A stretch of 64,000 nucleotides of DNA from a virus (lineage: Duplodnaviria; Caudoviricetes), in the IMG/VR virus record IMGVR_UViG_3300020577_003313. One strand, given 5' to 3'. Made by a program: the position numbers and the translations under genes. Every line of letters starts with the position of its first letter. The first letter of the stretch is position 1. Below are positions 3,710 to 63,053 of the stretch, in pieces. Under the pieces are notes generated by a model. The model was not told the origin of the DNA. It saw only the letters and a list, made by a program, of their open reading frames with translations, and made no database searches.

Positions 3710-4726
3710 TTATTGCCAAATATTAGGTGTTCTCGGAATTACGATCGGCCGTTCATTTGTTGATTTGACTGTATTGTATACAGGTATGAATCCAGTTGAG
3801 ATACAATTGATCAACTGAATAACATCTTCTTGTTTAATACCCTTAGACACATACTCATAAAGGTAATAGAACTTGGACATAGCTTGTCCAAGATGATGTT
3901 TAAACTGAAATACAAAATCTCTAAAGTCATCTGGCCATGCCGATGCCTTGGTCATTTCTAAGAACTTGGGAATATTCTTTAGATCATATTTAACCACGAG
4001 ACGGTTAAATTCTTGCTCTTCTTCTTGAGTTAAGAGCCGTGCCCCAGGTCCAGATTCGTGAATAGGATTAGAAACATTGTAGACACATTCATTGTAAATG
4101 AATGACTCGATAGTCTTCATGTGATAGAAGAAGCATCTATGATCGCCGATAGGGGCCTCAATCATTTTAGGCGAAGGACTATAGATGCTGTCTACCTGAG
4201 TTGGAGTAACATGCATCCCGCACGGACTATGGATGAAGTAGTTATGCTTGGAGCTTTTTCTATAGAAGATCCTCTTGGATCTTCTTAGGTAATCCTCTTG
4301 AGAAGGACTCTCTTGAACTCTCCAGAAGTTATTGCTACTATCTACAGCAAGATATGTTAGAGAAGGGATATAGACTATATTAAGTTGCGGCAGCTGGCTA
4401 ATTACTTTGTCTATGTTAGATACAACAGACATTAGGTTTTCACTTGGAAACTCGTCATCATCAAGAGCAAGTATCCAGTCGCCGTCTTCTACTACAGAGT
4501 TTCTCTTGTAGTACTGATCTACATGTCTTCCCTTCCACGGGGAATCTACTACTCTAAGATTAGGTATGCCACTGTAGAATGCTTTCGCGCTCTCAGTTAA
4601 GTTCCCGTCGACGACTACTGAATAGTCAAATCGGTGAGCATAATTTTGAAGAGCCCACTTTAATATGGAACCCGGAATGCCGTCTCCAGCATTCATAGTA
4701 ATATAGCCAAGTACAGTTTTGGTCAT
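3710..4726 (-). CDS. Glycosyltransferase family 2-like
   Basis: VVVDG and WILALDDDE motifs. Confidence 0.7.
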   Translation of the reverse strand: MTKTVLGYITMNAGDGIPGSILKWALQNYAHRFDYSVVVDGNLTESAKAFYSGIPNLRVVDSPWKGRHVDQYYKRNSVVEDGDWILALDDDEFPSENLMSVVSNIDKVISQLPQLNIVYIPSLTYLAVDSSNNFWRVQESPSQEDYLRRSKRIFYRKSSKHNYFIHSPCGMHVTPTQVDSIYSPSPKMIEAPIGDHRCFFYHMKTIESFIYNECVYNVSNPIHESGPGARLLTQEEEQEFNRLVVKYDLKNIPKFLEMTKASAWPDDFRDFVFQFKHHLGQAMSKFYYLYEYVSKGIKQEDVIQLINCISTGFIPVYNTVKSTNERPIVIPRTPNIWQ

Positions 4727-4968
4727 TTTTCTCTCTTATTGAATCCTTTGTGCCATATATAATGGGTAATCGTGTTACCAATTTTTAGGATTCTAGTCTC
4801 AGACTCTTCGGGCCAGAAGATGTGTAGTAGCTCGTGTATTAATGTTCCAAGGTAAAGTCTGTCCGGCATGCCAGAGCGAAGTTCTATTTTGTCTTTGCCT
4901 ATGTAGGCATAGCCATAGTACTTTCGTAGCTTCCTTTCTTTTATCTTTACCCTATGAAGCTTAACCAC
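4723..4968 (-). CDS. Small HEXXH zincin-like protein
   Basis: TLIHELLH. Confidence 0.6.
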   Translation of the reverse strand: MVKLHRVKIKERKLRKYYGYAYIGKDKIELRSGMPDRLYLGTLIHELLHIFWPEESETRILKIGNTITHYIWHKGFNKREK

Positions 4969-55312: not shown

Positions 55313-55565
55313 GTCCTTGCAGCAATCTCTTTTCTTCTTCTCTTAGGAACTCTAGAACTGTATTCCACTTTCTAATTAGCCCCCCTTGTAGGGGGGCCTT
55401 ATTTCCGTCCTGATCTATGTAATTTACTTCATAGTCAGTAATTTGCCTGTAGTACTGACTAAATAGCTCATAAACAAAAGTGTCTATGAATCTTATTCCA
55501 GTATTACTGAATGTTCTTTTTACAGTTTTACCAGATAAGTTGTATTGTAGTTCCCAGTAACCCAT
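55275..55565 (-). CDS. Hypothetical protein
   Basis: TAATG coupling to the NAMPT-like gene. Confidence 0.55.
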   Translation of the reverse strand: MGYWELQYNLSGKTVKRTFSNTGIRFIDTFVYELFSQYYRQITDYEVNYIDQDGNKAPLQGGLIRKWNTVLEFLREEEKRLLQGHDNHSIEECKTR

Positions 55566-57022
55566 TAGTCTCTAATTCTATCTCTAATTTCCTGTAGAGA
55601 AAGAGGATAAAGCATGTTACCATTGATAAACACTGGCTGGAGCATGTTCTTACCACTATAGAAAGCTTCAGGAGTTGCTTCATCCATATAGGCAATCTTA
55701 CCATTAGTGTCTCTGTAGACAACTGGCAAGCCCTTGATGCTATTCTTAGTTCCATCATCAGTCTTTGGCTTCTTGAAGATGTTATAGCCTTGACCGTTGT
55801 TGATACAGTGAGTAGCTTTAATTGCAGAACCGAGCGTGTCTCTAGTATTGTACTGGTAGCTATAGCTACCAATTCCTAGAACAATGTTGGTACTGGCAAA
55901 TCCCTTCTTCTTCAAACCTTCGAGGATGTTAATCTGGCGTTCCAGTGTAATGCTATCTCCGTAGATAGCACCGATGTGCTGATCGAGCACCTTATAACCC
56001 TTGGAGTTCACGTATCCTCCAAAGATATTGAAAAGAGTCTCAATCAACCCAGCCCGAACCGCAGGTTCGGTAGAAGTTGGATCACCAATCAAAATCTTGA
56101 CAGGATCGCCGCTGTCTGGACGGATCACAACCTTACCTTCTCTAGACATAATTTCAGTCTTGAGAGCAGGAAGATACTCAGTGACGAGCTTCCAGAAGTC
56201 AAAGCTGTCAGAAACAACAGAGACAATACCAGTTGGGTGTGTCTTAGTGATAAGTCTCTGAATGCTATTGAGTTCTCCTTCAACGCTTGCACTAGCACAC
56301 ATGACTGCGTGCTCTGTTGCAGGAACAGATCCAGCTACCAGTTCTGTAGGGCTAGCACCATAGTACTTCCTCAGATAGGCGATAGCCGGTAGCGTATCGG
56401 AACCGACAAAGCTAGTAAGGTGAGCCATAGCAGAAGTGATGGCCGCCTCAATGCTAAACATACCTCTAAACGAGAAGTCGTGGCCCTGCCACGCACAGAA
56501 CGACTGGTCATCCGAAGTCTCTTTAGCGTAGTAATCAAAATTTCTACGGTAAATAGTAGCAATTGTGGCAGAATTCATCATTCCCCACAATGTTGCAGAC
56601 ATCTGGGTTTCCAAAAAGTTAGGAAGCCAGAAGAAATCTGGATGAGTATTAGCAATCGTGTAGAGAGGAACTCTGATAGGAACTCTTGTTCCTTCCTTCA
56701 AAGCTCTGATCTCAATTGGCATGTAGCCAAGCTTATGAAGTTTCTCTAAGTGAGAAACATCATTCTTAACAGAGAGATAGGAATCAATGTAGTCCTTGTA
56801 TTCCTTGACAGCATCCTTGTTATCAAAGAAGTTTGTCTGCCACTGATTCAGCAAGTACTCAGAAATGTAATACTGAAGACCGAAGAATATGGCTTCATTG
56901 AATGGCAGTCTCGTACTACGGCAAACCCAGTTGCTAGTAATAAAGTTTGTGCCAGAAGGATACTGATGGACGTGGCCAATCTTGTATCCATCAATAAGAA
57001 GCGAAGGGTTAAGGTTGAGCAT
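55565..57022 (-). CDS. nadV: Nicotinamide phosphoribosyltransferase-like enzyme (probable Namat of NARP1)
   Basis: DGYKIGH, HDFSFRG, GSDT, ATEHAVM, SVVSDS, IRPDSGDP, YGDSIT, TRDT. Confidence 0.9.
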   Translation of the reverse strand: MLNLNPSLLIDGYKIGHVHQYPSGTNFITSNWVCRSTRLPFNEAIFFGLQYYISEYLLNQWQTNFFDNKDAVKEYKDYIDSYLSVKNDVSHLEKLHKLGYMPIEIRALKEGTRVPIRVPLYTIANTHPDFFWLPNFLETQMSATLWGMMNSATIATIYRRNFDYYAKETSDDQSFCAWQGHDFSFRGMFSIEAAITSAMAHLTSFVGSDTLPAIAYLRKYYGASPTELVAGSVPATEHAVMCASASVEGELNSIQRLITKTHPTGIVSVVSDSFDFWKLVTEYLPALKTEIMSREGKVVIRPDSGDPVKILIGDPTSTEPAVRAGLIETLFNIFGGYVNSKGYKVLDQHIGAIYGDSITLERQINILEGLKKKGFASTNIVLGIGSYSYQYNTRDTLGSAIKATHCINNGQGYNIFKKPKTDDGTKNSIKGLPVVYRDTNGKIAYMDEATPEAFYSGKNMLQPVFINGNMLYPLSLQEIRDRIRD

Positions 57023-57023
57023 T

Positions 57024-57830
57024 TTACGACTTTACTTTAACTGTGTAACTGTCTGTGGTATAAATATTACCAAAATATCTGTATAATTCTTCCATTCCTT
57101 TGGAATAGATACCATGCGTGGTATACAGATTCAGCGTAGCGTTCTTATATTTTTCTTTGATGACTTTTGCTGCGCCAATGAAGGTTCCTCCTCCATCGCA
57201 GATATCATCCAAGATTAACATAGTATGAAATTCTTGTTCTGTACTACCCATAGCACCATCATCAAGAATCTTGAATTGACTAAGATTCCCGGTCGCCGGG
57301 TCTCTAACTTTGCACATTACAATGGTTCTCATAGAACCAATGAATGGTTTGTATCTCTTGGCAGCTCCCTCATCTGGGAGAATAATACAGTCTGCGTTAG
57401 TCTCTTTGATAACCTTATTGATGATAAGGGTCAGAAGATCTCTTCGTACAGAAAATACAGATTTGTCGAAGCAAGCAGCAAGAACATTAGAATGAGGATC
57501 AATTGTAGCAATCTCTTTAACACGACCATCAAAAAGCTTGGCGATCGTTCTAACAGATAATCCGGCTCCGTCTTCTGTGGCTCTGTCTTGTCTTGCATAA
57601 GGAAAATATGGAATGAACAGAGTCTCTACGTCTAAGCCCTTATCTTTTAGGATATCCAAGGCTAAAATTGCCCGCATAATTTTAGTTGGATTTTCAATAT
57701 CAATCCTAATAGTATAAGGAATTTCGGCTACTTCACGGAGCCGCGCTCCTATCTCTCCGCCAGGAAATTCCCAGAATTCAAACATCTCTTCAAGACGACA
57801 GGTATTTCCTAGACCGATGACAGATTTCAT
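57024..57830 (-). CDS. prs: Ribose-phosphate pyrophosphokinase-like enzyme (probable Adps of NARP1)
   Basis: FPGGE, PYFPYARQDR, DPHS, PDEGA, DDICDGGGT, THG. Confidence 0.88.
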   Translation of the reverse strand: MKSVIGLGNTCRLEEMFEFWEFPGGEIGARLREVAEIPYTIRIDIENPTKIMRAILALDILKDKGLDVETLFIPYFPYARQDRATEDGAGLSVRTIAKLFDGRVKEIATIDPHSNVLAACFDKSVFSVRRDLLTLIINKVIKETNADCIILPDEGAAKRYKPFIGSMRTIVMCKVRDPATGNLSQFKILDDGAMGSTEQEFHTMLILDDICDGGGTFIGAAKVIKEKYKNATLNLYTTHGIYSKGMEELYRYFGNIYTTDSYTVKVKS

Positions 57831-57832
57831 AG

Positions 57833-58051
57833 TTAATTAGAGAGAGGATTGTTGATTAGATTAGTTAGAGCTTCAACCACAAGACTAGCTTGCTCTTTTG
57901 TCATAATCAGCCTAAGACTTGACTGACTAGAATCATTGATCTCAATCAAGTCAAGCCCGTCACGATCGGGCATAACTGTAATATGAGTTCCGTTTTTGTT
58001 ATCAAAAATTCGGTAGTGAGTCTCAAGCTCAAAATTAGGAACGTTTGTCAT
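57833..58051 (-). CDS. Hypothetical protein
   Basis: ORF; DRDGLDLIEI. Confidence 0.55.
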   Translation of the reverse strand: MTNVPNFELETHYRIFDNKNGTHITVMPDRDGLDLIEINDSSQSSLRLIMTKEQASLVVEALTNLINNPLSN

Positions 58052-58217
58052 TTAATTTCTTATTAGGTGGTGATATAACTTTATAGCACATTCCGCACTC
58101 AGGACAGTAGGCTATATTTGGGGTATCCTCTATCATCTTAGTATTTCTAAGACCACAGTAAGTACACATATACCCCACTTCATCTATTTCCGGTATTTCA
58201 TCTTCTTCTTCGTTCAT
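58035..58217 (-). CDS. Small Zn-ribbon protein
   Basis: CTYC...CPEC. Confidence 0.55.
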   Translation of the reverse strand: MNEEEDEIPEIDEVGYMCTYCGLRNTKMIEDTPNIAYCPECGMCYKVISPPNKKLNDKRS

Positions 58218-58235
58218 AGAAAGTCAAGATTTAGA

Positions 58236-58312
58236 TGGTGGCTCGGATGGGACTTGAACCCATACTTGACTGATTTTAAGTCAGTTGCCTCTGCCAATTG
58301 GGCTACTGAGCC
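58236..58312 (-). tRNA. tRNA-Leu(TAA) with short variable loop
   Basis: GGCTCAG...ACTGA-CTTAAAA-TCAGT-CAAGT-ATGGG-TTCAAGT-CCCAT-CCGAGCC-A-CCA. Confidence 0.85.
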
Positions 58313-58313
58313 A

Positions 58314-58419
58314 TGGTAGGCCGGGTGGGACTCGAACCCACGATCATCCGCAAATCAGGCGGCTCCATTTCTGGGCCGGATTATAAATCCGGTGCATTAA
58401 CCAACTATGCTACCGGCCT
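58314..58419 (-). tRNA. tRNA-Ile(TAT) with a 34-nt two-hairpin variable region
   Basis: AGGCCGG acceptor, GCAT/ATGC D stem, CCGGA-TTTATAA-TCCGG, GTGGG-TTCGAGT-CCCAC, ACCA. Confidence 0.8.
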
Positions 58420-58457
58420 TTATTTCCGGTCAATGCACCCGAGCAGTTGAAGCTCTA

Positions 58458-58685
58458 TCAGTCTCTAGAACGCTTAACTATATCTCTACCAGCAAGAAGA
58501 ACTGAAACATTCAATCCTATTACAACTAATGTAACCATACAAAATGATATGAATTCGTTAGAAAATTCAATTTCTGGAATTCCTAATCTATGTAAGGTAT
58601 GTACATATATTCCATTGGTAAAAGCAGTTAATGTCCCTACTAAGGCTAGATAGAATAGCCAAGGATGATTAGTAGCTTTCATCAC
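58458..58685 (-). CDS. Small two-TM membrane protein
   Basis: Hydrophobic helices. Confidence 0.55.
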   Translation of the reverse strand: MMKATNHPWLFYLALVGTLTAFTNGIYVHTLHRLGIPEIEFSNEFISFCMVTLVVIGLNVSVLLAGRDIVKRSRD

Positions 58686-58939
58686 TCTTTTAGAACTTCT
58701 TTAAGAAAGTCTACGAAAATGTTTAAGTGATCTTCTGCGAACTTTCTGTCAATTTCTTTCGCTTCTTCAGAAAGTTCTGAGTAAGGCTTGAAATATCCTT
58801 GCCATCTAGTCACTATACTTGGGTTAAGTTCTGGATGTGCTTTTAGCACAGTCTCTGCCCAAAACCACCAGTGCTCATGAACTTTCTTTGCTAGTCTTTC
58901 TTTTAGAACTTCTTGGATAGGGTTCTTCCACTTCTTCAT
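58682..58939 (-). CDS. Hypothetical protein (RyR-repeat-like PYSELSEEAKEIDR motif)
   Basis: HE.W...PY.EL.E..K..DR. Confidence 0.55.
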   Translation of the reverse strand: MKKWKNPIQEVLKERLAKKVHEHWWFWAETVLKAHPELNPSIVTRWQGYFKPYSELSEEAKEIDRKFAEDHLNIFVDFLKEVLKE

Positions 58940-59574
58940 TGTAGTAATTTAATAGTTAACCGATCGCTCGCATAGATAAATCCATTAAGAGGATCAACTC
59001 TTAATGCTTGAGCTTCTACGAAACAATCTAAAAGCGCCGGATCCGGATACACTTGCATTACTACTGAAAAGATATCATGAAGGTAAGGACCAACCTGAAC
59101 CTGCTGCACTACCATAGGTAGTGCTAGAACATAATCCTGTGCAGAATTGACAAAAAACTCGTCGAATCCAGGAAATCCACCTGGTATTAGAGTAGAATAA
59201 GCAATAGGATAGCAACCCCAGGACCATGGTTGGTTAAACCCTATAGCAAATACAGGCATGTAAATGCCTGAAGTATTGCAGTTCAGGTAAGGACAGATAA
59301 ACCCCATACTGTAAAAGTATAGTAGACCGCCCAGGGACACCCCAAGATGTTGGGTAGGGCACCCTACAGGAGCTGGAGTATCTGTATAACACTGAATAGT
59401 CTGGGCACCAGCAATATTACTAGTTATGTATTGATGATTAGTTATCATCCCTACAGAAGTTAAATTATTCTGTGCTGAGCATGTTATTGCCAAAACTAAC
59501 GATAGAATCAATTTATTGATCATTGTATTATTCCAATTTATTCCCAGCACAAAAGAAAGCTCACTCAGGCTCAA
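58936..59574 (-). CDS. Secreted protein with a Planctomycetota-type C-terminal motif
   Basis: Signal peptide MINKLILSLVLAITCSAQ; C-terminus PDPALL...AQA..VDP...SD.L. Confidence 0.55.
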   Translation of the reverse strand: MSLSELSFVLGINWNNTMINKLILSLVLAITCSAQNNLTSVGMITNHQYITSNIAGAQTIQCYTDTPAPVGCPTQHLGVSLGGLLYFYSMGFICPYLNCNTSGIYMPVFAIGFNQPWSWGCYPIAYSTLIPGGFPGFDEFFVNSAQDYVLALPMVVQQVQVGPYLHDIFSVVMQVYPDPALLDCFVEAQALRVDPLNGFIYASDRLTIKLLQ

Positions 59575-59879
59575 GCCTGAGGAGCAGCAGCTACAGCACT
59601 AGAGAGTGAATCCGTGATTGACTGAAGACTCTGTGTAACAGAGTTGATTTCAGCTGGGCTTGGAGCACTAGCTAGCTTAGCTGTTAGACTCTGAAGGGTA
59701 GCTACAGCTTGGCCTACTGTGGCCTGTAAGGCTGTAACTTGGCTTACTAACGCTTGAAGTTCTGTGGTCATGGTTTGATCTCTTTTTTGAATTTCCCTAA
59801 GTGCTTTGAAAATATTGTCTAATCTTCTCCCAAGAGGAGCGATTAGCCAACAATACTTAGGGTTATTAAATTTGCTCAT
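59571..59879 (-). CDS. Ala/Gln-rich coiled-coil protein
   Basis: Heptad pattern. Confidence 0.6.
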   Translation of the reverse strand: MSKFNNPKYCWLIAPLGRRLDNIFKALREIQKRDQTMTTELQALVSQVTALQATVGQAVATLQSLTAKLASAPSPAEINSVTQSLQSITDSLSSAVAAAPQA

Positions 59880-59895
59880 GTTTTACTTACTGAAA

Positions 59896-59969
59896 TGGTG
59901 CCGGATAAAAGAATCGAACTTTTGATTGAGGTTTACAAAACCACTGGTATGCCACTTACCTAATCCGGC
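59896..59969 (-). tRNA. tRNA-Thr(TGT)
   Basis: GCCGGAT...GTGGT-TTTGTAA-ACCTC...AAAAG-TTCGATT-CTTTT-ATCCGGC-A-CCA. Confidence 0.85.
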
Positions 59970-59978
59970 GCAGTTAAG

Positions 59979-60170
59979 CTAGTCTATTAGAAATTTACCC
60001 GAAATCCCAAAATAATCAAGAATAGCTCTTCTAACTTCTGGAGACTGTTTTTGTGCCCATTCAATTAATTTGATTTTCTCTTTATTGCGTCCGATATCAC
60101 TAGCAATAACCCAGACACATAAGGCTGCCATAGCCACCATGAATATACAACATAAAAGCTCAATCCCCAT
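59979..60170 (-). CDS. Small membrane protein
   Basis: N-terminal TM. Confidence 0.5.
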   Translation of the reverse strand: MGIELLCCIFMVAMAALCVWVIASDIGRNKEKIKLIEWAQKQSPEVRRAILDYFGISGKFLID

Positions 60171-60351
60171 AAGGTTTTCTACCTACTTCGTATTGAAGCG
60201 CAAGAATAGGCCATGTAAAAAAGATTACAATTGATATAGCAATTAGCTCATAAACAGGAACTTTCTTATACTTTGTTTCATCAATAATTATGAAAATCGA
60301 ACTAATTAGCCAACCAAGAATCCAGACGGCCAGTCCAATGTAAAAAAGCAT
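60160..60351 (-). CDS. Small two-TM membrane protein
   Basis: Hydrophobic, FFTWPI. Confidence 0.55.
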   Translation of the reverse strand: MLFYIGLAVWILGWLISSIFIIIDETKYKKVPVYELIAISIVIFFTWPILALQYEVGRKPYGD

Positions 60352-60617
60352 TATGTTTTCCAGGTAGTGTCTGCTAGTTGTTTTCTGTCGATCCAGGGAT
60401 TTCTTCCATCACCTGATCCCCAGCATTGATTGCAGATATCCATAGTAGGTTTACTAACACCCATGCCACCTCTCCAGGTGGCACCATTTGGATAGCAACA
60501 AACACCAGATCCAAAACACTTCAAACAAGGATGCTTGATATTTCTAAGAGCCAAAAGATCATTGTATGAGTAGTTCTTATCATCTGGATTTGAAGGTATT
60601 CTAGTAAAGAATCTCAT
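60351..60617 (-). CDS. DnaJ-type CxxCxGxG Zn-finger protein
   Basis: CLKCFGSG...CNQCWGSG. Confidence 0.65.
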   Translation of the reverse strand: MRFFTRIPSNPDDKNYSYNDLLALRNIKHPCLKCFGSGVCCYPNGATWRGGMGVSKPTMDICNQCWGSGDGRNPWIDRKQLADTTWKT

Positions 60618-60633
60618 ACGGATTAAGAATTAG

Positions 60634-60860
60634 AAAAAAATAGATCGAAGCTAAATCAGTGCTAAAACTAATTTTTGAGGAATGAGTTTTAGTTGCGCAC
60701 AGGAACCGGTGAGCTAATTTCGGTGTTTATGAGATTCTGAATCATTTTACATCCTCGCCGAACGGCGATTATGCTGGTTTATTCAGATATCGTATATCAT
60801 TTATTTTTATCTAGCTTTTTCAAGCTAAATAGAAATAAGCACCGACTAGCTTCGATCTAT
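60634..60860 (-). ncRNA. Predicted structured RNA (~225 nt) closed by a ~23-bp stem and U tract
   Basis: Terminal arms 60838-60860 and 60640-60663; internal GAAA-capped hairpin and further stems; G.U pairs only on the minus strand. Confidence 0.65.
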
Positions 60861-60868
60861 AGATGTTG

Positions 60869-61309
60869 TTACTCGATATGAGTCACAACATTGTACTCGT
60901 CAATCTCGTCTTGAAGCGCGGCAATTCGCGCCTCGATATCCGAGATCATAGATGCTTGGGTTGCCTTGTCGATACCGACAAGGACATCAACATAGACTTC
61001 ACTGGAATAACTACCCTTCGGCACTGGAGTGCCACTAGTAGTCAGGCCCTTGATCAGTCCCAGGGTAGATCTAAGCTGGTCCATCCTGGCCAGCTTTTCG
61101 GCAATAGGAGCCGACGCCTTGGCAATTTTGCCCTTTAAGGTAGCCAGCTGAACACTGGCTTCTGTGTAAGAAGCATATGCCTTCTTAATGTCGGTCTTTC
61201 CGCCGACATCGTCCACTCTCTGGACGTTTTCCTTGGTAATCAACTCCTTGAGAGAGTTGATGGCCTTGAGATAGCGATTCTTTTCTTTAAGAGCTCGTGC
61301 GATGTTCAT
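60869..61309 (-). CDS. DIP1984/septicolysin-like helical protein
   Basis: MNIARALKEKNR...LATLKGKI...IAALQDEIDEYNVVTHIE matches the family N- and C-terminal pattern. Confidence 0.55.
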   Translation of the reverse strand: MNIARALKEKNRYLKAINSLKELITKENVQRVDDVGGKTDIKKAYASYTEASVQLATLKGKIAKASAPIAEKLARMDQLRSTLGLIKGLTTSGTPVPKGSYSSEVYVDVLVGIDKATQASMISDIEARIAALQDEIDEYNVVTHIE

Positions 61310-61341
61310 ATAAACGTGATATGTGTATATTATTATTTATG

Positions 61342-61421
61342 TGGTCCCTAGGGTGGGAATTGAACCCACATGTATCCAATTAACCTTTCTATCGCGTATC
61401 AGGCGAAGGGTATACCTAGGG
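61342..61421 (-). tRNA. Atypical D-armless tRNA-Ile(GAT)-like gene
   Basis: CCCTAGG/CCTAGGG acceptor, TCGC-CTGATAC-GCGA, GTGGG-TTCAATT-CCCAC, A-CCA; no D arm 5' of the anticodon. Confidence 0.65.
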
Positions 61422-61428
61422 TAAAACT

Positions 61429-61899
61429 ATGAATCAATGTCAAAATAAAGACTGCAACAAAGAGACTAAAAATCCAAGATTTTGCTCAAAATCCTGTTCT
61501 GCAATAGTAACAGGATCAGAAAGTCATAAACGAAAAAGAACTAAAACTTGTAAAGTATGTAGTGCTTTAATTACGTCAGAAAAAACTTTCTGTAGTAATC
61601 TCTGTTACTCTAAAGGTAGAGCAAAACGAAGAACTACTAAGCCAATTGGTTATGAGAGAGTAAAAAATTTCAGAGCTAGATTGAAGCAACAAAGTATTGA
61701 CTACAAAGGCGGAAAATGTAGTATTTGTGCTTACTCTAAATGTACAAAAGCTCTTGAGTTTCACCATTTAGATCCTACTCAAAAGGATTTTGTAATCAGT
61801 AGTGTTTCTAAATCATTTGAAGCAATAAAATATGAACTAGATAAGTGTATTTTAGTTTGTGCAAATTGTCATAGAGAAATACATGACAAAATGCTCTAA
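61429..61899 (+). CDS. Free-standing HNH endonuclease
   Basis: FCSKSC/FCSNLC fingers, GGKCSIC, LEFHH.DP..K, CILVCANCHREIH. Confidence 0.88.
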   Translation: MNQCQNKDCNKETKNPRFCSKSCSAIVTGSESHKRKRTKTCKVCSALITSEKTFCSNLCYSKGRAKRRTTKPIGYERVKNFRARLKQQSIDYKGGKCSICAYSKCTKALEFHHLDPTQKDFVISSVSKSFEAIKYELDKCILVCANCHREIHDKML

Positions 61900-61918
61900 C
61901 CAACTGAGCTACCCAGGG
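61892..61918 (-). pseudogene. Orphan 5' half of a canonical tRNA (acceptor strand + D arm)
   Basis: CCCTGGG-TA-GCTC-AGTTGGTTA-GAGC-A; pairs with the 3' acceptor strand at 61346-61352. Confidence 0.75.
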
Positions 61919-61932
61919 TTAAGAAGAAGTCC

Positions 61933-62523
61933 TTAGACTTCTTCGATCACTTCGAAACTGTCATTGTCGAAGATGGTAAGACTAACGTTCTTAGTCTTAA
62001 GTTCGTGAAACCTTCTGAAGGTATTGATGATACTCTTCAGTTCCTTCATCTTAGCTTTGATGAACTTTTCTCCCTTTACCTTTTCCTTAAGGTTCTTGGA
62101 GACATAGTTAGTTCGCTCATATCCGAGATCATCGAGCATGATCACGAAATCTGAGTGAGACATTCCACTGTTCAAACAATTGAGAATTGTAGCTTGATTG
62201 TTCTTGAAGAACGTGCTGTGCTGAATCTTAGCACAGATCTCAATGCAGCTAAGCTTAGCTGCGTTGTAGTTTACCTTGTGGTCATTGAGGAACTTACCCC
62301 AAATATAACAACGAGGCGCGCTGATCTTGTACCTAGCCTGAAGGGCTAGACACAGCGAATTAACAGTGTGGGGGGTTTGACCTTCGAGCATACCTTCAAC
62401 GAAGGTATAGACTGCCGTGCAGAGGGTACGCCAAGAATTACGCTCCTGTCTATGCGCAACCTTGTAAATTCGTGCAGCGTCTTCGATCTTAGTTAGAAGT
62501 TCGTTCTTAACGAGAGTCGTCAT
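61933..62523 (-). CDS. Hypothetical protein
   Basis: 196-aa ORF, elevated GC3. Confidence 0.65.
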   Translation of the reverse strand: MTTLVKNELLTKIEDAARIYKVAHRQERNSWRTLCTAVYTFVEGMLEGQTPHTVNSLCLALQARYKISAPRCYIWGKFLNDHKVNYNAAKLSCIEICAKIQHSTFFKNNQATILNCLNSGMSHSDFVIMLDDLGYERTNYVSKNLKEKVKGEKFIKAKMKELKSIINTFRRFHELKTKNVSLTIFDNDSFEVIEEV

Positions 62524-62526
62524 ATT

Positions 62527-62721
62527 TTAAGTATCTAGAAATTTCTCTATATCGTTGATAGGAATGTATCCTAAATGATAAAGCCTATCAGCAATTACCT
62601 TTTTAACAGCATTAGCATCTAGGTTCCTTTCAGATAGATATTCATAAATATCTAAAAGTTCTTCCTTGATGTCTTGAGGCTTATTGAAAGGCCAATTGTG
62701 ATCTTTATCCATTAGGTCCAT
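62527..62721 (-). CDS. Hypothetical protein
   Basis: ORF packing. Confidence 0.5.
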   Translation of the reverse strand: MDLMDKDHNWPFNKPQDIKEELLDIYEYLSERNLDANAVKKVIADRLYHLGYIPINDIEKFLDT

Positions 62722-63053
62722 AAGTGAAAGAAAATTTCTGAAAAAGCTTGCAGCCCTTCGTCAATTTCTTTATTTCCTGCTTTAACGAGAGGATCATAGT
62801 AATTTTCCATTGAGTTCAGAAAATTAAACACTCTCTTGGCTAATTTTAGCTTTCTTTGAAACTCTGGATCTGGGCATGCATGTTCAAAAGCATTCAATCT
62901 TGGAGCGATGAATCTGACGAAAGTTTCATCAAGATTCCATAGCTCGGTATCATCAAAGCCGCGCTTCTTTAGTTGCTTCCTATATTTCTTGATTCTTTTA
63001 TCATTCTTTGGAAGGGTATGGAGATACCCATGGTATCTAACTGGCTTTTTCAT
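62712..63053 (-). CDS. Conserved phage hypothetical protein
   Basis: RGFDDTELWNLD..FIAPRL...LW. Confidence 0.65.
   Translation of the reverse strand: MKKPVRYHGYLHTLPKNDKRIKKYRKQLKKRGFDDTELWNLDETFVRFIAPRLNAFEHACPDPEFQRKLKLAKRVFNFLNSMENYYDPLVKAGNKEIDEGLQAFSEIFFHLWT

What the first reader, a model, noticed from the sequence alone, without database searches (positions are those of the whole stretch)
61342..61421. D-armless tRNA-Ile(GAU)-like RNA with its D-loop motif moved to the variable-arm side
Seen: minus strand reads CCCUAGG UAUA CCCU UCGC-CUGAUAC-GCGA UAGAAAGG UUAAUUGGAUACAU GUGGG-UUCAAUU-CCCAC CCUAGGG A CCA. The acceptor stem, T arm, A73, CCA and an Ile GAU anticodon loop are intact, but there is no D arm. 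Instead the 5' linker CCU can pair with AGG 3' of the anticodon arm, and a D-loop-like AAUUGG follows it. Inference: this is a topologically rearranged tRNA in which the GG that docks onto the T loop comes from the 3' side. It could be a functional tRNA that evades host anticodon nucleases or the neighbouring HNH, or a tRNA decoy.
Basis: partly seen in the sequence, partly recalled or inferred. Interest (0 to 1): 0.85.

Follow-up and report, generated by a model that had tools for sequence, protein, structure and literature searches.

The report
Rewired phage isoleucine tRNA, HNH cassette
This 80-base gene is a real, conserved phage isoleucine tRNA whose D-arm pieces are joined in a different order from textbook tRNAs, and here it sits beside a homing-endonuclease gene that has broken an ordinary tRNA gene.

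Summary
Window 61342-61421 (minus strand) has a 7-bp acceptor stem, a canonical T arm, A73, an encoded CCA and a GAU anticodon loop, but no D hairpin.

It is not a decayed gene. All share the layout, with anticodons for Ile (GAU, UAU, CAU) or Arg (ACG, UCU, CCU).

- **Structure:** across 93 distinct sequences every helix covaries. This includes a 3-bp helix (61409-61411 with 61383-61385) that encloses the anticodon arm.
- **Mapping (inferred):** canonical segments 10-21 and 22-47 have swapped places, keeping U8, A14, G18G19 and position 48.
- **Identity marks:** A73 occurs in 80/80 Ile-type members, and an A20 equivalent in 13/13 Arg-type members.
- **Context:** copies lie in tRNA arrays, and ARAGORN finds 2 of 93.
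- **Local setting:** the gene lies 7 nt head-to-head with an HNH gene whose stop codon falls inside an orphan canonical tRNA 5' part (61892-61918). A near-identical strain has two sister HNH cassettes carrying Arg(UCU) and Lys(UUU) tRNAs beside broken resident genes of the same anticodon.

Earlier reports of this scan describe the same class on other DNA. I found no paper on it.

The parts
61342..61421 (-). Rewired tRNA-Ile(GAU) gene: 77 nt to the discriminator plus an encoded CCA
   Evidence: Sequence. Rfam tRNA 31.5 bits. Family covariance model R1 94.5 bits, E 1e-23.
61415..61421 (-). Acceptor stem 5' strand (positions 1-7), pairs with 61346-61352
   Evidence: 7 of 7 pairs here. All 7 pairs covary in the family, 95% of cells paired.
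61412..61414 (-). U8 A9 U10 linker. U10 is read as the partner of U40 (a 13-22-like mismatch), which is inferred.
   Evidence: Alignment A1. These columns were fixed by the search pattern, so their invariance is not evidence.
61409..61411 (-). 5' strand of the 3-bp helix that encloses the anticodon arm. It plays the role of canonical D-stem positions 23-25.
   Evidence: Pairs with 61383-61385. 100% paired in 93 sequences. Pair types are CG/AU/GC/UA and CG/UA/GC/AU at columns left free in the search pattern.
61392..61406 (-). Anticodon arm: a 4-bp stem (61403-61406 with 61392-61395), a 7-nt loop at 61396-61402 and anticodon GAU at 61398-61400. It is flanked by a conserved U.U (61407, 61391) at the 27-43 position.
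   Evidence: All four stem pairs covary, 98.9% paired. The loop has U33 and A37. Divergent family members have C-G in place of U.U.
61386..61391 (-). UAGAAA connector between the anticodon stem and the helix 3' strand. It is read as positions 43, 44 and a 45-47-like bulge (inferred).
   Evidence: Alignment A1. The columns were fixed by the pattern. The motif also appears in model hits that do not match the pattern.
61383..61385 (-). 3' strand of the 3-bp helix. It plays the role of canonical D-stem positions 10-12.
61370..61382 (-). D-loop-like segment and connector: U, AAUUGG (A14 A15 U16 U17 G18 G19 equivalents), A20 equivalent, U, A21 equivalent, then CAU (U = position 48 equivalent)
   Evidence: The CAU before the T stem lay outside the search pattern and is conserved at 90% or more. 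The residue after GG is A in 13/13 Arg-type and 2/80 Ile-type members.
61353..61369 (-). Canonical T arm: 5-bp stem and UUCAAUU loop
   Evidence: 97.8% paired, 4 of 5 pairs covary.
61422..61428 (.). 7-nt spacer between the tRNA 5' end and the HNH start codon (head to head)
   Evidence: Sister cassettes in L166 show the same 7 to 8 nt spacing.
61429..61899 (+). HNH homing-endonuclease gene (156 aa), antisense to all neighbouring genes. Its last codons and TAA stop (61897-61899) are the complement of the orphan tRNA's D loop and D stem.
   Evidence: phrog_2255 HNH endonuclease, E 1.3e-24. 37% identical to two paralogues with a shared HNH motif. Coordinates.
61892..61918 (-). Orphan 5' part of a canonical tRNA gene: acceptor strand, U8 A9, a full 4-bp D arm with a GG loop, and A26. 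It is followed by HNH antisense sequence instead of an anticodon arm.
   Evidence: It lies outside every ARAGORN call. Its acceptor strand pairs 7 of 7 (one G.U) with the rewired tRNA's 3' strand.

Best explanation
Window 61342-61421 (minus strand) encodes a working elongator tRNA-Ile(GAU) of a phage-specific class with a rewired core.

Compared with a cloverleaf, the block holding D-stem strand 10-13 plus the D loop (10-21) has changed places with the block holding D-stem strand 22-25, the anticodon arm and the variable nucleotides (22-47). The RNA therefore runs in this order: acceptor strand, U8 A9, the 22-25-like strand, the anticodon arm, the 10-13-like strand, a D-loop-like AAUUGG, a short connector, the T arm, then the acceptor strand.

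The two D-stem strands still pair, now as a 3-bp helix stacked on a 4-bp anticodon stem. That gives about ten stacked layers, as in a normal tRNA. U8, A14, G18G19, A21 and U48 equivalents are kept, so the molecule can still fold into an L. It should be charged by host IleRS and read AUC/AUU, which make up 71% of this phage's Ile codons. The helices and conservation are shown. The three-dimensional mapping, charging and decoding are inferred.

Locally the gene is the tRNA half of a roughly 560-bp homing cassette, with a divergent HNH gene 7 nt away. The cassette landed in a resident canonical tRNA gene just after position 26 and left that gene's 5' part as an orphan. Most likely the cassette supplies a same-function tRNA whose gene no longer carries the endonuclease's target. 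I put this second layer at about 0.55.
For: About 37 Streptomyces phage records, a crAss-like Bacteroides phage and a 462-kb uncultured phage also carry it.

**2. Covariation.** In 93 distinct sequences, 97.5% of cells are paired and the covariation score is 0.897 against 0.224 in shuffles (0 of 500 reach it). Slid registers reach at most 0.16. The new 3-bp helix is 100% paired with four pair types at two positions. RNAalifold predicts the same structure unaided.

**3. tRNA-like identity logic.**
- Only Ile-type (GAU 27, UAU 51, CAU 2) and Arg-type (ACG 10, UCU 2, CCU 1) anticodons occur, always with U33 and A37.
- The discriminator is A in 80/80 Ile-type members and G in 9/13 Arg-type members.
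- The residue after GG, the position 20 equivalent, is A in 13/13 Arg-type against 2/80 Ile-type members, p = 4e-14.
- A20 is the main bacterial ArgRS determinant and A73 is an IleRS determinant (PMC9976931).
- Under my mapping this gene also has the bacterial Ile determinants U12-A23 and C29-G41.

**4. Context.** 95 of 150 copies lie within 100 nt of a canonical tRNA gene, and 109 of 109 within 300 nt are on the same strand.

**5. Phage restriction.** Only 21 hits occur in 185,579 prokaryote genomes, all on MAG contigs.

**6. Transfer or strong selection.** L033 shares a 78-nt, 93.6% identical copy with the window and nothing else at DNA or protein level.

**7. Cassette.**
- The orphan canonical 5' part lies at 61892-61918, with the HNH stop codon inside it, and its acceptor strand matches 7 of 7.
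- A 98-100% identical strain (L164/L166) has two paralogous HNH genes 7 and 8 nt head to head with tRNA-Lys(UUU) and tRNA-Arg(UCU).
- The Arg cassette sits inside a split resident tRNA-Arg(UCU), and the Lys cassette is followed by a resident Lys(UUU) 3' half.
- In IMG/VR locus L116 an unrelated NUMOD4/HNH_3 gene plus a rewired tRNA-Ile(UAU) split a resident tRNA whose halves pair 7 of 7.
Against:
- The Rfam score is only just above threshold.
- Several E. coli Ile determinants are absent here (C4-G69, A38, G16, U20). The A at the position 20 equivalent is otherwise the Arg-type mark.
- Some phages carry a canonical tRNA-Ile(GAU) as well as the rewired one: 7 loci and Streptomyces phage EGole genes 108 and 159. 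The rewired copy can therefore be redundant.
- For the cassette layer, the resident 3' half is missing at this locus, so the resident gene's anticodon is unknown.
- HNH genes abut canonical tRNA genes about as often as rewired ones.
- In L116 the resident gene's anticodon could not be read with confidence, so same-anticodon replacement is not shown there.
- Most family members have no HNH neighbour.
Confidence: 0.78

Rival explanations
1. It is a tRNA-shaped decoy or regulator that is not used in translation. For example, it could act as bait for a host tRNA nuclease, a synthetase or a modification enzyme.
For: Some phages carry both a canonical and a rewired tRNA-Ile(GAU). The odd core could spoil ribosome or EF-Tu use while keeping the recognition surfaces.
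Against: The anticodon repertoire tracks discriminator and position 20 identity marks, as in real Ile and Arg tRNAs. The anticodon loops keep U33 and A37. The acceptor/T branch keeps the standard 7 + 5 pairs. The genes sit in line with ordinary tRNA genes on the same strand. In many contigs the rewired gene is the only Ile(UAU) or Ile(GAU) gene in the fetched stretch.
Confidence: 0.1
2. It is debris: a canonical tRNA gene damaged by the HNH insertion, or a chimera of cassette and resident pieces, that merely still looks tRNA-like.
For: It lies next to an orphan tRNA half and an HNH gene. The Rfam score is marginal and ARAGORN is silent.
Against: The whole 77-nt layout, including the unpaired motifs, recurs in more than 100 unrelated contigs with compensatory changes in every helix. 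A 93.6% identical copy sits inside a normal tRNA array in an otherwise unrelated contig. No truncated or split rewired copies were found in 1.38 Mb of loci.
Confidence: 0.03
3. It is a working tRNA, but the rewired core is kept because it escapes RNA-level attack, such as host anticodon or D-arm-directed tRNA nucleases or the phage's own host-tRNA shut-off. DNA-level homing would then be irrelevant.
For: Phage tRNAs are known to counter tRNA-cleaving defences. One example is Septu cleaving the variable loop of tRNA-Tyr, with T6 escaping through its tRNA locus (abstract of PMC13096335). The window also carries a NAMPT plus PRPP-synthetase-like pair typical of counter-defence.
Against: The anticodon loop, the usual nuclease target, is fully canonical. 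No nuclease specific for Ile or Arg tRNA bodies was identified here. Nothing in the data distinguishes this from neutral inheritance of an old rearrangement.
Confidence: 0.15

Closest known systems
Canonical bacterial and phage tRNA-Ile(GAU), Rfam RF00005 cloverleaf
   Same: It has a 7-bp acceptor stem, A73, CCA, a 5-bp T stem with a UUCRANY loop, and a 7-nt anticodon loop with U33, GAU and A37. Total length is about 77 nt. A GG motif is available for the T loop. Copies are placed in phage tRNA arrays.
   Different: No D hairpin lies between position 9 and the anticodon arm. The D-stem strands lie on either side of the anticodon arm, and the D-loop motif lies between that arm and the T arm. 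The anticodon stem has 4 pairs plus U.U. ARAGORN misses it, and Rfam scores it 31.5 bits against 60-65 bits for the window's ordinary tRNAs.
D-arm-lacking mitochondrial tRNAs: mammalian mt-tRNA-Ser(AGY) and nematode mt-tRNAs (review PMC7609411)
   Same: Both are non-cloverleaf tRNAs that still work in translation, with an anticodon-side helix extended to keep the anticodon-to-acceptor distance.
   Different: Those tRNAs have truly lost the D stem and loop, are shorter and more flexible, and are confined to organelles with adapted partners. This class keeps both D-stem strands, the GG loop and full length, and must work with ordinary bacterial synthetases and ribosomes. The review mentions no phage or bacterial case.
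Circularly permuted tRNA genes of the red alga Cyanidioschyzon merolae (from memory, not checked here)
   Same: The order of tRNA segments in the gene differs from the cloverleaf order.
   Different: In that case processing restores a normal cloverleaf RNA. Here both RNA ends are at the normal acceptor positions, so no simple cut-and-join would restore the canonical order. The mature RNA itself should be rewired.
Phage T4 SegB, a free-standing homing endonuclease in the tRNA gene cluster (PMC2330249)
   Same: It is a homing endonuclease gene lodged among phage tRNA genes. It recognises a conserved tRNA-gene motif as DNA (for SegB, the T-arm motif) and drives inheritance of its own tRNA region.
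   Different: SegB is a GIY-YIG enzyme, sits between genes and carries no spare tRNA. Here HNH enzymes sit inside broken tRNA genes, at the D-arm or anticodon-stem junction. They are paired head to head, 7-8 nt apart, with an unusual tRNA of the same anticodon.

Membership tests
tRNA (Rfam RF00005, cloverleaf) | Score at or above the family's gathering threshold | tested here: met
   31.5 bits against a threshold of 29, reached only by deleting the D arm and inserting 18 nt.
tRNA (Rfam RF00005, cloverleaf) | Acceptor stem of 7 bp, discriminator, T arm of 5 bp with a 7-nt T loop | tested here: met
tRNA (Rfam RF00005, cloverleaf) | Anticodon arm with a 7-nt loop, U33 and a purine at 37 | tested here: met
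   The loop at 61396-61402 reads C U G A U A C. The stem has 4 pairs plus U.U.
tRNA (Rfam RF00005, cloverleaf) | D hairpin (stem 10-13 with 22-25 closing the D loop) between position 9 and the anticodon arm | tested here: not met
   Only 6 nt lie between A9 and the anticodon stem. The Rfam alignment deletes 15 model positions.
tRNA (Rfam RF00005, cloverleaf) | Aminoacylation and use on the ribosome | not testable with these tools
Rewired (block-swapped D-arm) phage Ile/Arg tRNA class, defined here by model R1 | Full-length match to the class covariance model | tested here: met
   94.5 bits, E 1e-23, model positions 1-77. The sequence was in the seed alignment. Its closest relative L033 scores 93.2 bits.
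Rewired (block-swapped D-arm) phage Ile/Arg tRNA class, defined here by model R1 | 3-bp helix enclosing the anticodon arm, with covariation | tested here: met
   61409-61411 with 61383-61385. The family is 100% paired with four pair types.
Rewired (block-swapped D-arm) phage Ile/Arg tRNA class, defined here by model R1 | AAUNGG motif and CAU connector between that helix and the T arm | tested here: met
   61370-61382.
Rewired (block-swapped D-arm) phage Ile/Arg tRNA class, defined here by model R1 | Ile or Arg anticodon with a matching discriminator | tested here: met
   GAU with A73. 80 of 80 Ile-type members have A73.
Rewired (block-swapped D-arm) phage Ile/Arg tRNA class, defined here by model R1 | Location in a phage tRNA array on the same strand | tested here: inconclusive
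   Three other tRNA genes lie on the same strand within 3.2 kb, but the nearest is 1376 nt away. Here the immediate neighbours are an HNH gene and an orphan tRNA half.
D-arm-lacking mitochondrial-type tRNA | Loss of the D stem and of the D-loop/T-loop GG contact, with shortened length | tested here: not met
   Both D-stem strands and the GG motif are present, and length is 77 nt.
Free-standing HNH homing-endonuclease cassette | HNH endonuclease ORF, orientation or placement foreign to its neighbours, and an interrupted target gene at its border | tested here: met
   phrog_2255, E 1.3e-24. In this module 71 of 77 long ORFs lie on the other strand. An orphan tRNA 5' part lies at its 3' end.
Free-standing HNH homing-endonuclease cassette | Site-specific cleavage of the uninterrupted target, and homing | not testable with these tools
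   This needs an enzyme assay or co-infection crosses.

The most novel reading that the evidence does not exclude
Rewired tRNAs are homing-proof spare parts. HNH endonucleases of phage tRNA arrays recognise, as DNA, the conserved run from the D loop through D-stem strand 22-25 and position 26 into the anticodon stem of canonical tRNA genes. They insert there. They also carry, 7-8 nt from their start codon, a tRNA of the same anticodon whose gene no longer contains that contiguous site.

On this reading the block swap of the Ile/Arg class arose and spread between unrelated phages under DNA-level selection, not for any RNA-level reason.
Probability: 0.25. Interest if true: 0.92.

Novelty: new variant of a known kind. 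Interest (0 to 1): 0.85.

Why it matters
Outside mitochondria, every tRNA used in translation is taught as a cloverleaf with one fixed chain order. This class would show that ordinary bacterial synthetases, EF-Tu and ribosomes accept a tRNA whose core strands are connected differently. That makes the question of which connections in the tRNA core are actually required directly testable.

There is also a practical consequence. These genes are missed or mislabelled. ARAGORN finds 2 of 93. About 36 of 37 Streptomyces phage records leave the gene unannotated, and the remaining one calls it tRNA-Leu. Phage tRNA inventories and codon-supply analyses are therefore biased, especially for AUA and AGA.

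The local finding adds a second idea worth testing: homing endonucleases that break a tRNA gene while delivering an unusual replacement for it. The scaffold could also interest people who design orthogonal tRNAs.

Tried and rejected
- **Close relatives of the window.** Megablast of 57500-63000 against 50,697 phage records gave no match. The DNA polymerase is at most 38% identical to any record. The phage is new and its host is unknown.
- **Neighbouring proteins as anchors.** The 196-aa upstream protein has no relative in IMG/VR. The 146-aa downstream protein has relatives at only 29-33% identity, and their loci lack the element.
- **Single-sequence folding.** The z-score is -1.5, so it is not informative.
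Rejected by pair counts.
- **ARAGORN in mitochondrial mode.** It of 93 members, with wrong anticodons.
- **Is the HNH specifically tied to rewired tRNAs?** No.
  - The window's HNH family occurs in 34 of 148 loci.
  - Within 300 nt it is nearest a canonical tRNA 31 times and a rewired one 9 times, against 5.5 expected.
  - A crude HNH motif count gives 5.5% of ORFs flanking rewired genes against 3.7% flanking canonical genes.
- **Split or truncated rewired genes.** None were found in 1.38 Mb. The expected number is only about one, so this has no power.
- **Isotype of the orphan half.** Its D arm is generic and shared by Asn, Lys, Met, Ile, His and others.
- **The 103-nt tRNA at 58317-58419.** It has no full-length relative in the phage records. 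A pattern scan of IMG/VR found nothing. ARAGORN's intron mode gives only a forced solution.
- **Literature.** Eight full-text searches found no description of this chain order. The same holds for the review of non-canonical tRNAs (PMC7609411) and a 2026 paper on 4-bp anticodon stems. Papers outside the held library cannot be excluded.

Full report
**What is at the coordinates**

It has these parts:
- a perfect 7-bp acceptor stem;
- U8 A9;
- six more bases;
- a 4-bp stem with the 7-nt loop C U G A U A C;
- 21 bases that include AAUUGG;
- a canonical T arm;
- the acceptor 3' strand;
- A73;
- an encoded CCA.

Rfam's tRNA model just passes its threshold (31.5 bits against 29). It does so only by deleting the D arm and opening an 18-nt insertion. 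ARAGORN is silent.

The window is a replication and nucleotide-metabolism module of a novel large phage at about 39% G+C. It encodes a family A DNA polymerase, a primase-helicase, a ribonucleotide reductase, NAMPT and a PRPP-synthetase-like protein. Three other tRNA genes lie on the same strand within 3.2 kb.

**It is a family, not an accident**

blastn showed the interior of the element at about 83% identity in dozens of Streptomyces phages and at 80% in a 462-kb uncultured phage. The acceptor stems differ.

I then scanned IMG/VR with a pattern that fixed only the unpaired motifs. It left the anticodon, all stems and both variable positions of the new helix free.

The same scan of 185,579 prokaryote genomes gave 21 hits, all on MAG contigs. 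One of those contigs has the same 362,763-bp length as an IMG/VR phage contig. The class is in effect phage-only.

**Structure**

I aligned 93 distinct members (A1). My structure has four elements:
- the acceptor stem;
- a 3-bp helix, columns 11-13 with 37-39;
- a 4-bp anticodon stem;
- the T stem.

The pair counts are as follows.

| Measure | Result |
|---|---|
| Cells paired | 97.5% |
| Covariation score | 0.897 |
| Same score in shuffles | 0.224 (0 of 500 reach the observed value) |
| Same score in slid registers | at most 0.16 |
| New helix | 100% paired; CG, AU, GC, UA at one position and CG, UA, GC, AU at the next |

RNAalifold finds exactly this structure on its own.

Many invariant columns were fixed by my search pattern and carry no weight. 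The CAU before the T stem was not fixed, and neither were the helices.

Model hits that do not match the pattern keep the layout. In some of them a C-G pair replaces the U.U that flanks the anticodon stem, which fits a 27-43 pair.

**My reading of the topology (inference)**

| Window coordinates | Canonical positions |
|---|---|
| 61412-61409 | 22-25 |
| 61408 | 26 |
| 61407-61391 | the anticodon arm, 27-43 |
| 61389 | 44 |
| 61388-61386 | a 45-47-like bulge |
| 61385-61382 | 10-13 |
| 61381-61373 | the D loop, 14-21 |
| 61370 | 48 |

In short, blocks 10-21 and 22-47 have changed places. The stack of D-like helix plus anticodon stem keeps about ten layers. U8, A14, G18G19, A21 and U48 equivalents are all present. 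'D-armless' is therefore the wrong word.

**Signs that these are real, charged tRNAs**

- Only Ile-type and Arg-type anticodons occur, always with U33 and A37.
- The discriminator is A in 80 of 80 Ile-type members and G in 9 of 13 Arg-type members.
- The base after GG is A in 13 of 13 Arg-type members but in 2 of 80 Ile-type members, p = 4e-14.
- A20 is the main bacterial ArgRS determinant and A73 is an IleRS determinant (PMC9976931). The D-loop-like segment is therefore under the constraint expected of a D loop.
- 95 of 150 copies lie within 100 nt of an ordinary tRNA gene, and all 109 within 300 nt are on the same strand.
- This phage uses AUU plus AUC for 71% of its Ile codons. Ile is 7.6% of all its codons.

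ARAGORN finds 2 of 93 members. Of about 37 Streptomyces phage records, only EGole annotates the gene, and it labels it tRNA-Leu.

Two caveats apply. No expression or charging data could be obtained. Some phages, EGole included, also carry a canonical tRNA-Ile(GAU).

This member and its closest relative L033 are also odd in carrying the Arg-type A after GG. Their bodies resemble Arg(ACG) members, which suggests anticodon switching within the class.

**The surroundings change the local story**

First-stage notes on the same genome led me to check the flanks myself.

- On the minus strand, 61918-61892 is a flawless 5' part of a canonical tRNA. It has an acceptor strand, U8 A9, a 4-bp D arm with a GG loop, and A26. 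HNH antisense sequence follows it in place of an anticodon arm.
- The HNH gene (61429-61899, plus strand; phrog_2255, E 1e-24) ends with a TAA that is the complement of the orphan's D loop.
- The HNH gene starts 7 nt from the rewired tRNA's 5' end.
- The orphan's acceptor strand pairs 7 of 7 with the rewired tRNA's 3' strand. By chance that would happen about once in a thousand.

Logan contigs of a 98-100% identical strain let me read beyond the window's end. Two paralogous HNH genes lie there, each 37% identical to this one. Each sits 7 or 8 nt head to head with an unusual tRNA:

- **Lys(UUU) cassette.** The tRNA has a long variable arm. A resident Lys(UUU) 3' half follows the cassette.
- **Arg(UCU) cassette.** This tRNA also has a long variable arm. 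The cassette sits inside a split resident tRNA-Arg(UCU) whose two pieces pair 7 of 7.

In IMG/VR locus L116 an unrelated NUMOD4/HNH_3 gene plus a rewired tRNA-Ile(UAU) split another resident tRNA. In L050 an HNH gene alone splits one.

L033 and the window share nothing except the 78-nt tRNA gene, at 93.6% identity. This points to horizontal transfer of the gene.

**Limits of the cassette idea**

- HNH genes abut canonical tRNA genes about as often as rewired ones.
- Most rewired genes have no HNH neighbour.
- The resident 3' half is missing at this locus.
- No test here had the power to show that rewired genes resist invasion.

T4 SegB is a precedent for a homing enzyme that reads a conserved tRNA-gene motif as DNA (PMC2330249). 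A cassette that brings its own replacement tRNA is, as far as I could find, not described.

**Verdict**

The element is very probably a working tRNA-Ile(GAU) of a widespread, unannotated, phage-only class with a block-swapped core.

At this locus it is the tRNA half of an HNH homing cassette that broke a resident tRNA gene. I give about one chance in four that the swap exists because it makes the gene immune to such endonucleases.

Earlier reports of this scan describe the same class in at least eight other genomes. I reached the class independently, before reading them. I found no paper on it in eight searches and two reviews.

Noticed in passing
window 58317-58419 (-): A 103-nt tRNA scores 65 bits on Rfam but ARAGORN misses it. 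It is a normal cloverleaf with anticodon UAU (Ile, AUA). About 34 extra nt lie between the anticodon arm and the T arm, forming two hairpins. The second hairpin has an anticodon-like 7-nt loop containing GAU and shares an 8-nt run with the rewired tRNA's anticodon arm. No relative was found in the phage records or IMG/VR. It remains unexplained.
   Followed up: partly
L166:1296-1826 (same phage, near-identical strain, beyond the window's end): A resident tRNA-Arg(UCU) gene is split into a 5' piece (about 1296-1318) and a 3' piece (about 1783-1826). The insert carries an antisense HNH gene (1307-1654) and a complete tRNA-Arg(UCU) with a hairpin variable arm (1663-1747 plus CCA). The HNH stop codon lies in the resident D arm.
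   Followed up: yes
L166:72-780: This is the third cassette. An HNH gene (72-602, antisense) lies 7 nt from a tRNA-Lys(UUU) with an 11-nt extra variable region (610-695 plus CCA). A resident Lys(UUU) 3' half running from the anticodon loop to CCA follows it. The piece upstream of the HNH gene does not match that half and is unexplained.
   Followed up: partly
L166:2875-4870: A Ro60-like gene (faint vWA_Ro60 hit) and a VWA gene are followed by a YrlA-like Y RNA hit at 4738-4870 (52 bits, below the gathering score of 69). Another tRNA-like hit lies at 4676-4733. Streptomyces phage EGole, which also carries a rewired tRNA, encodes a Ro-like protein too.
   Followed up: no
window 55565-57830 (-): Adjacent NAMPT-like (485 aa; phrog_448, E 6e-182) and PRPP-synthetase-like (268 aa; phrog_619, E 5e-60) genes. 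This pairing is associated with NAD+ reconstitution against NAD-depleting defences.
   Followed up: no
L021, L022, L042, L046, L048, L062, L084, L093, L099 (for example L084:5655-5810): In many marine contigs a canonical tRNA-Arg(UCU) gene lies directly beside the rewired tRNA-Ile(UAU) gene, a few nt apart. This looks like a conserved two-gene unit for the rare codons AGA and AUA.
   Followed up: no
Streptomyces phage EGole MK494112.1 75265-75341 (L019:1495-1571): The rewired tRNA-Ile(GAU) is annotated as tRNA-Leu (UUA). In about 36 sister phage records the same stretch has no annotation. EGole also has canonical tRNA-Ile genes for AUC and AUA, and a nucleotidyltransferase gene lies just upstream of the rewired gene.
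   Followed up: partly
Alignment A1, columns 6 and 71 (acceptor pair 6-67): 21 of 93 family members have a mismatch, mostly U.U, at the sixth acceptor pair. Eight have one at the fifth. The other acceptor pairs are almost always intact.
   Followed up: no
L102:13013-13117 and L153:572-683: An orphan canonical tRNA 5' part (positions 1-26) lies only 2 nt (L102) or 9 nt (L153) upstream of a complete rewired tRNA, with no HNH gene between them. Its acceptor strand does not match the rewired tRNA's.
   Followed up: partly
window 61923-61944 (-): A 9-bp hairpin lies immediately before the orphan tRNA half. Its loop holds the stop codon of the upstream 196-aa ORF. It may be a terminator or a processing signal.
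   Followed up: no
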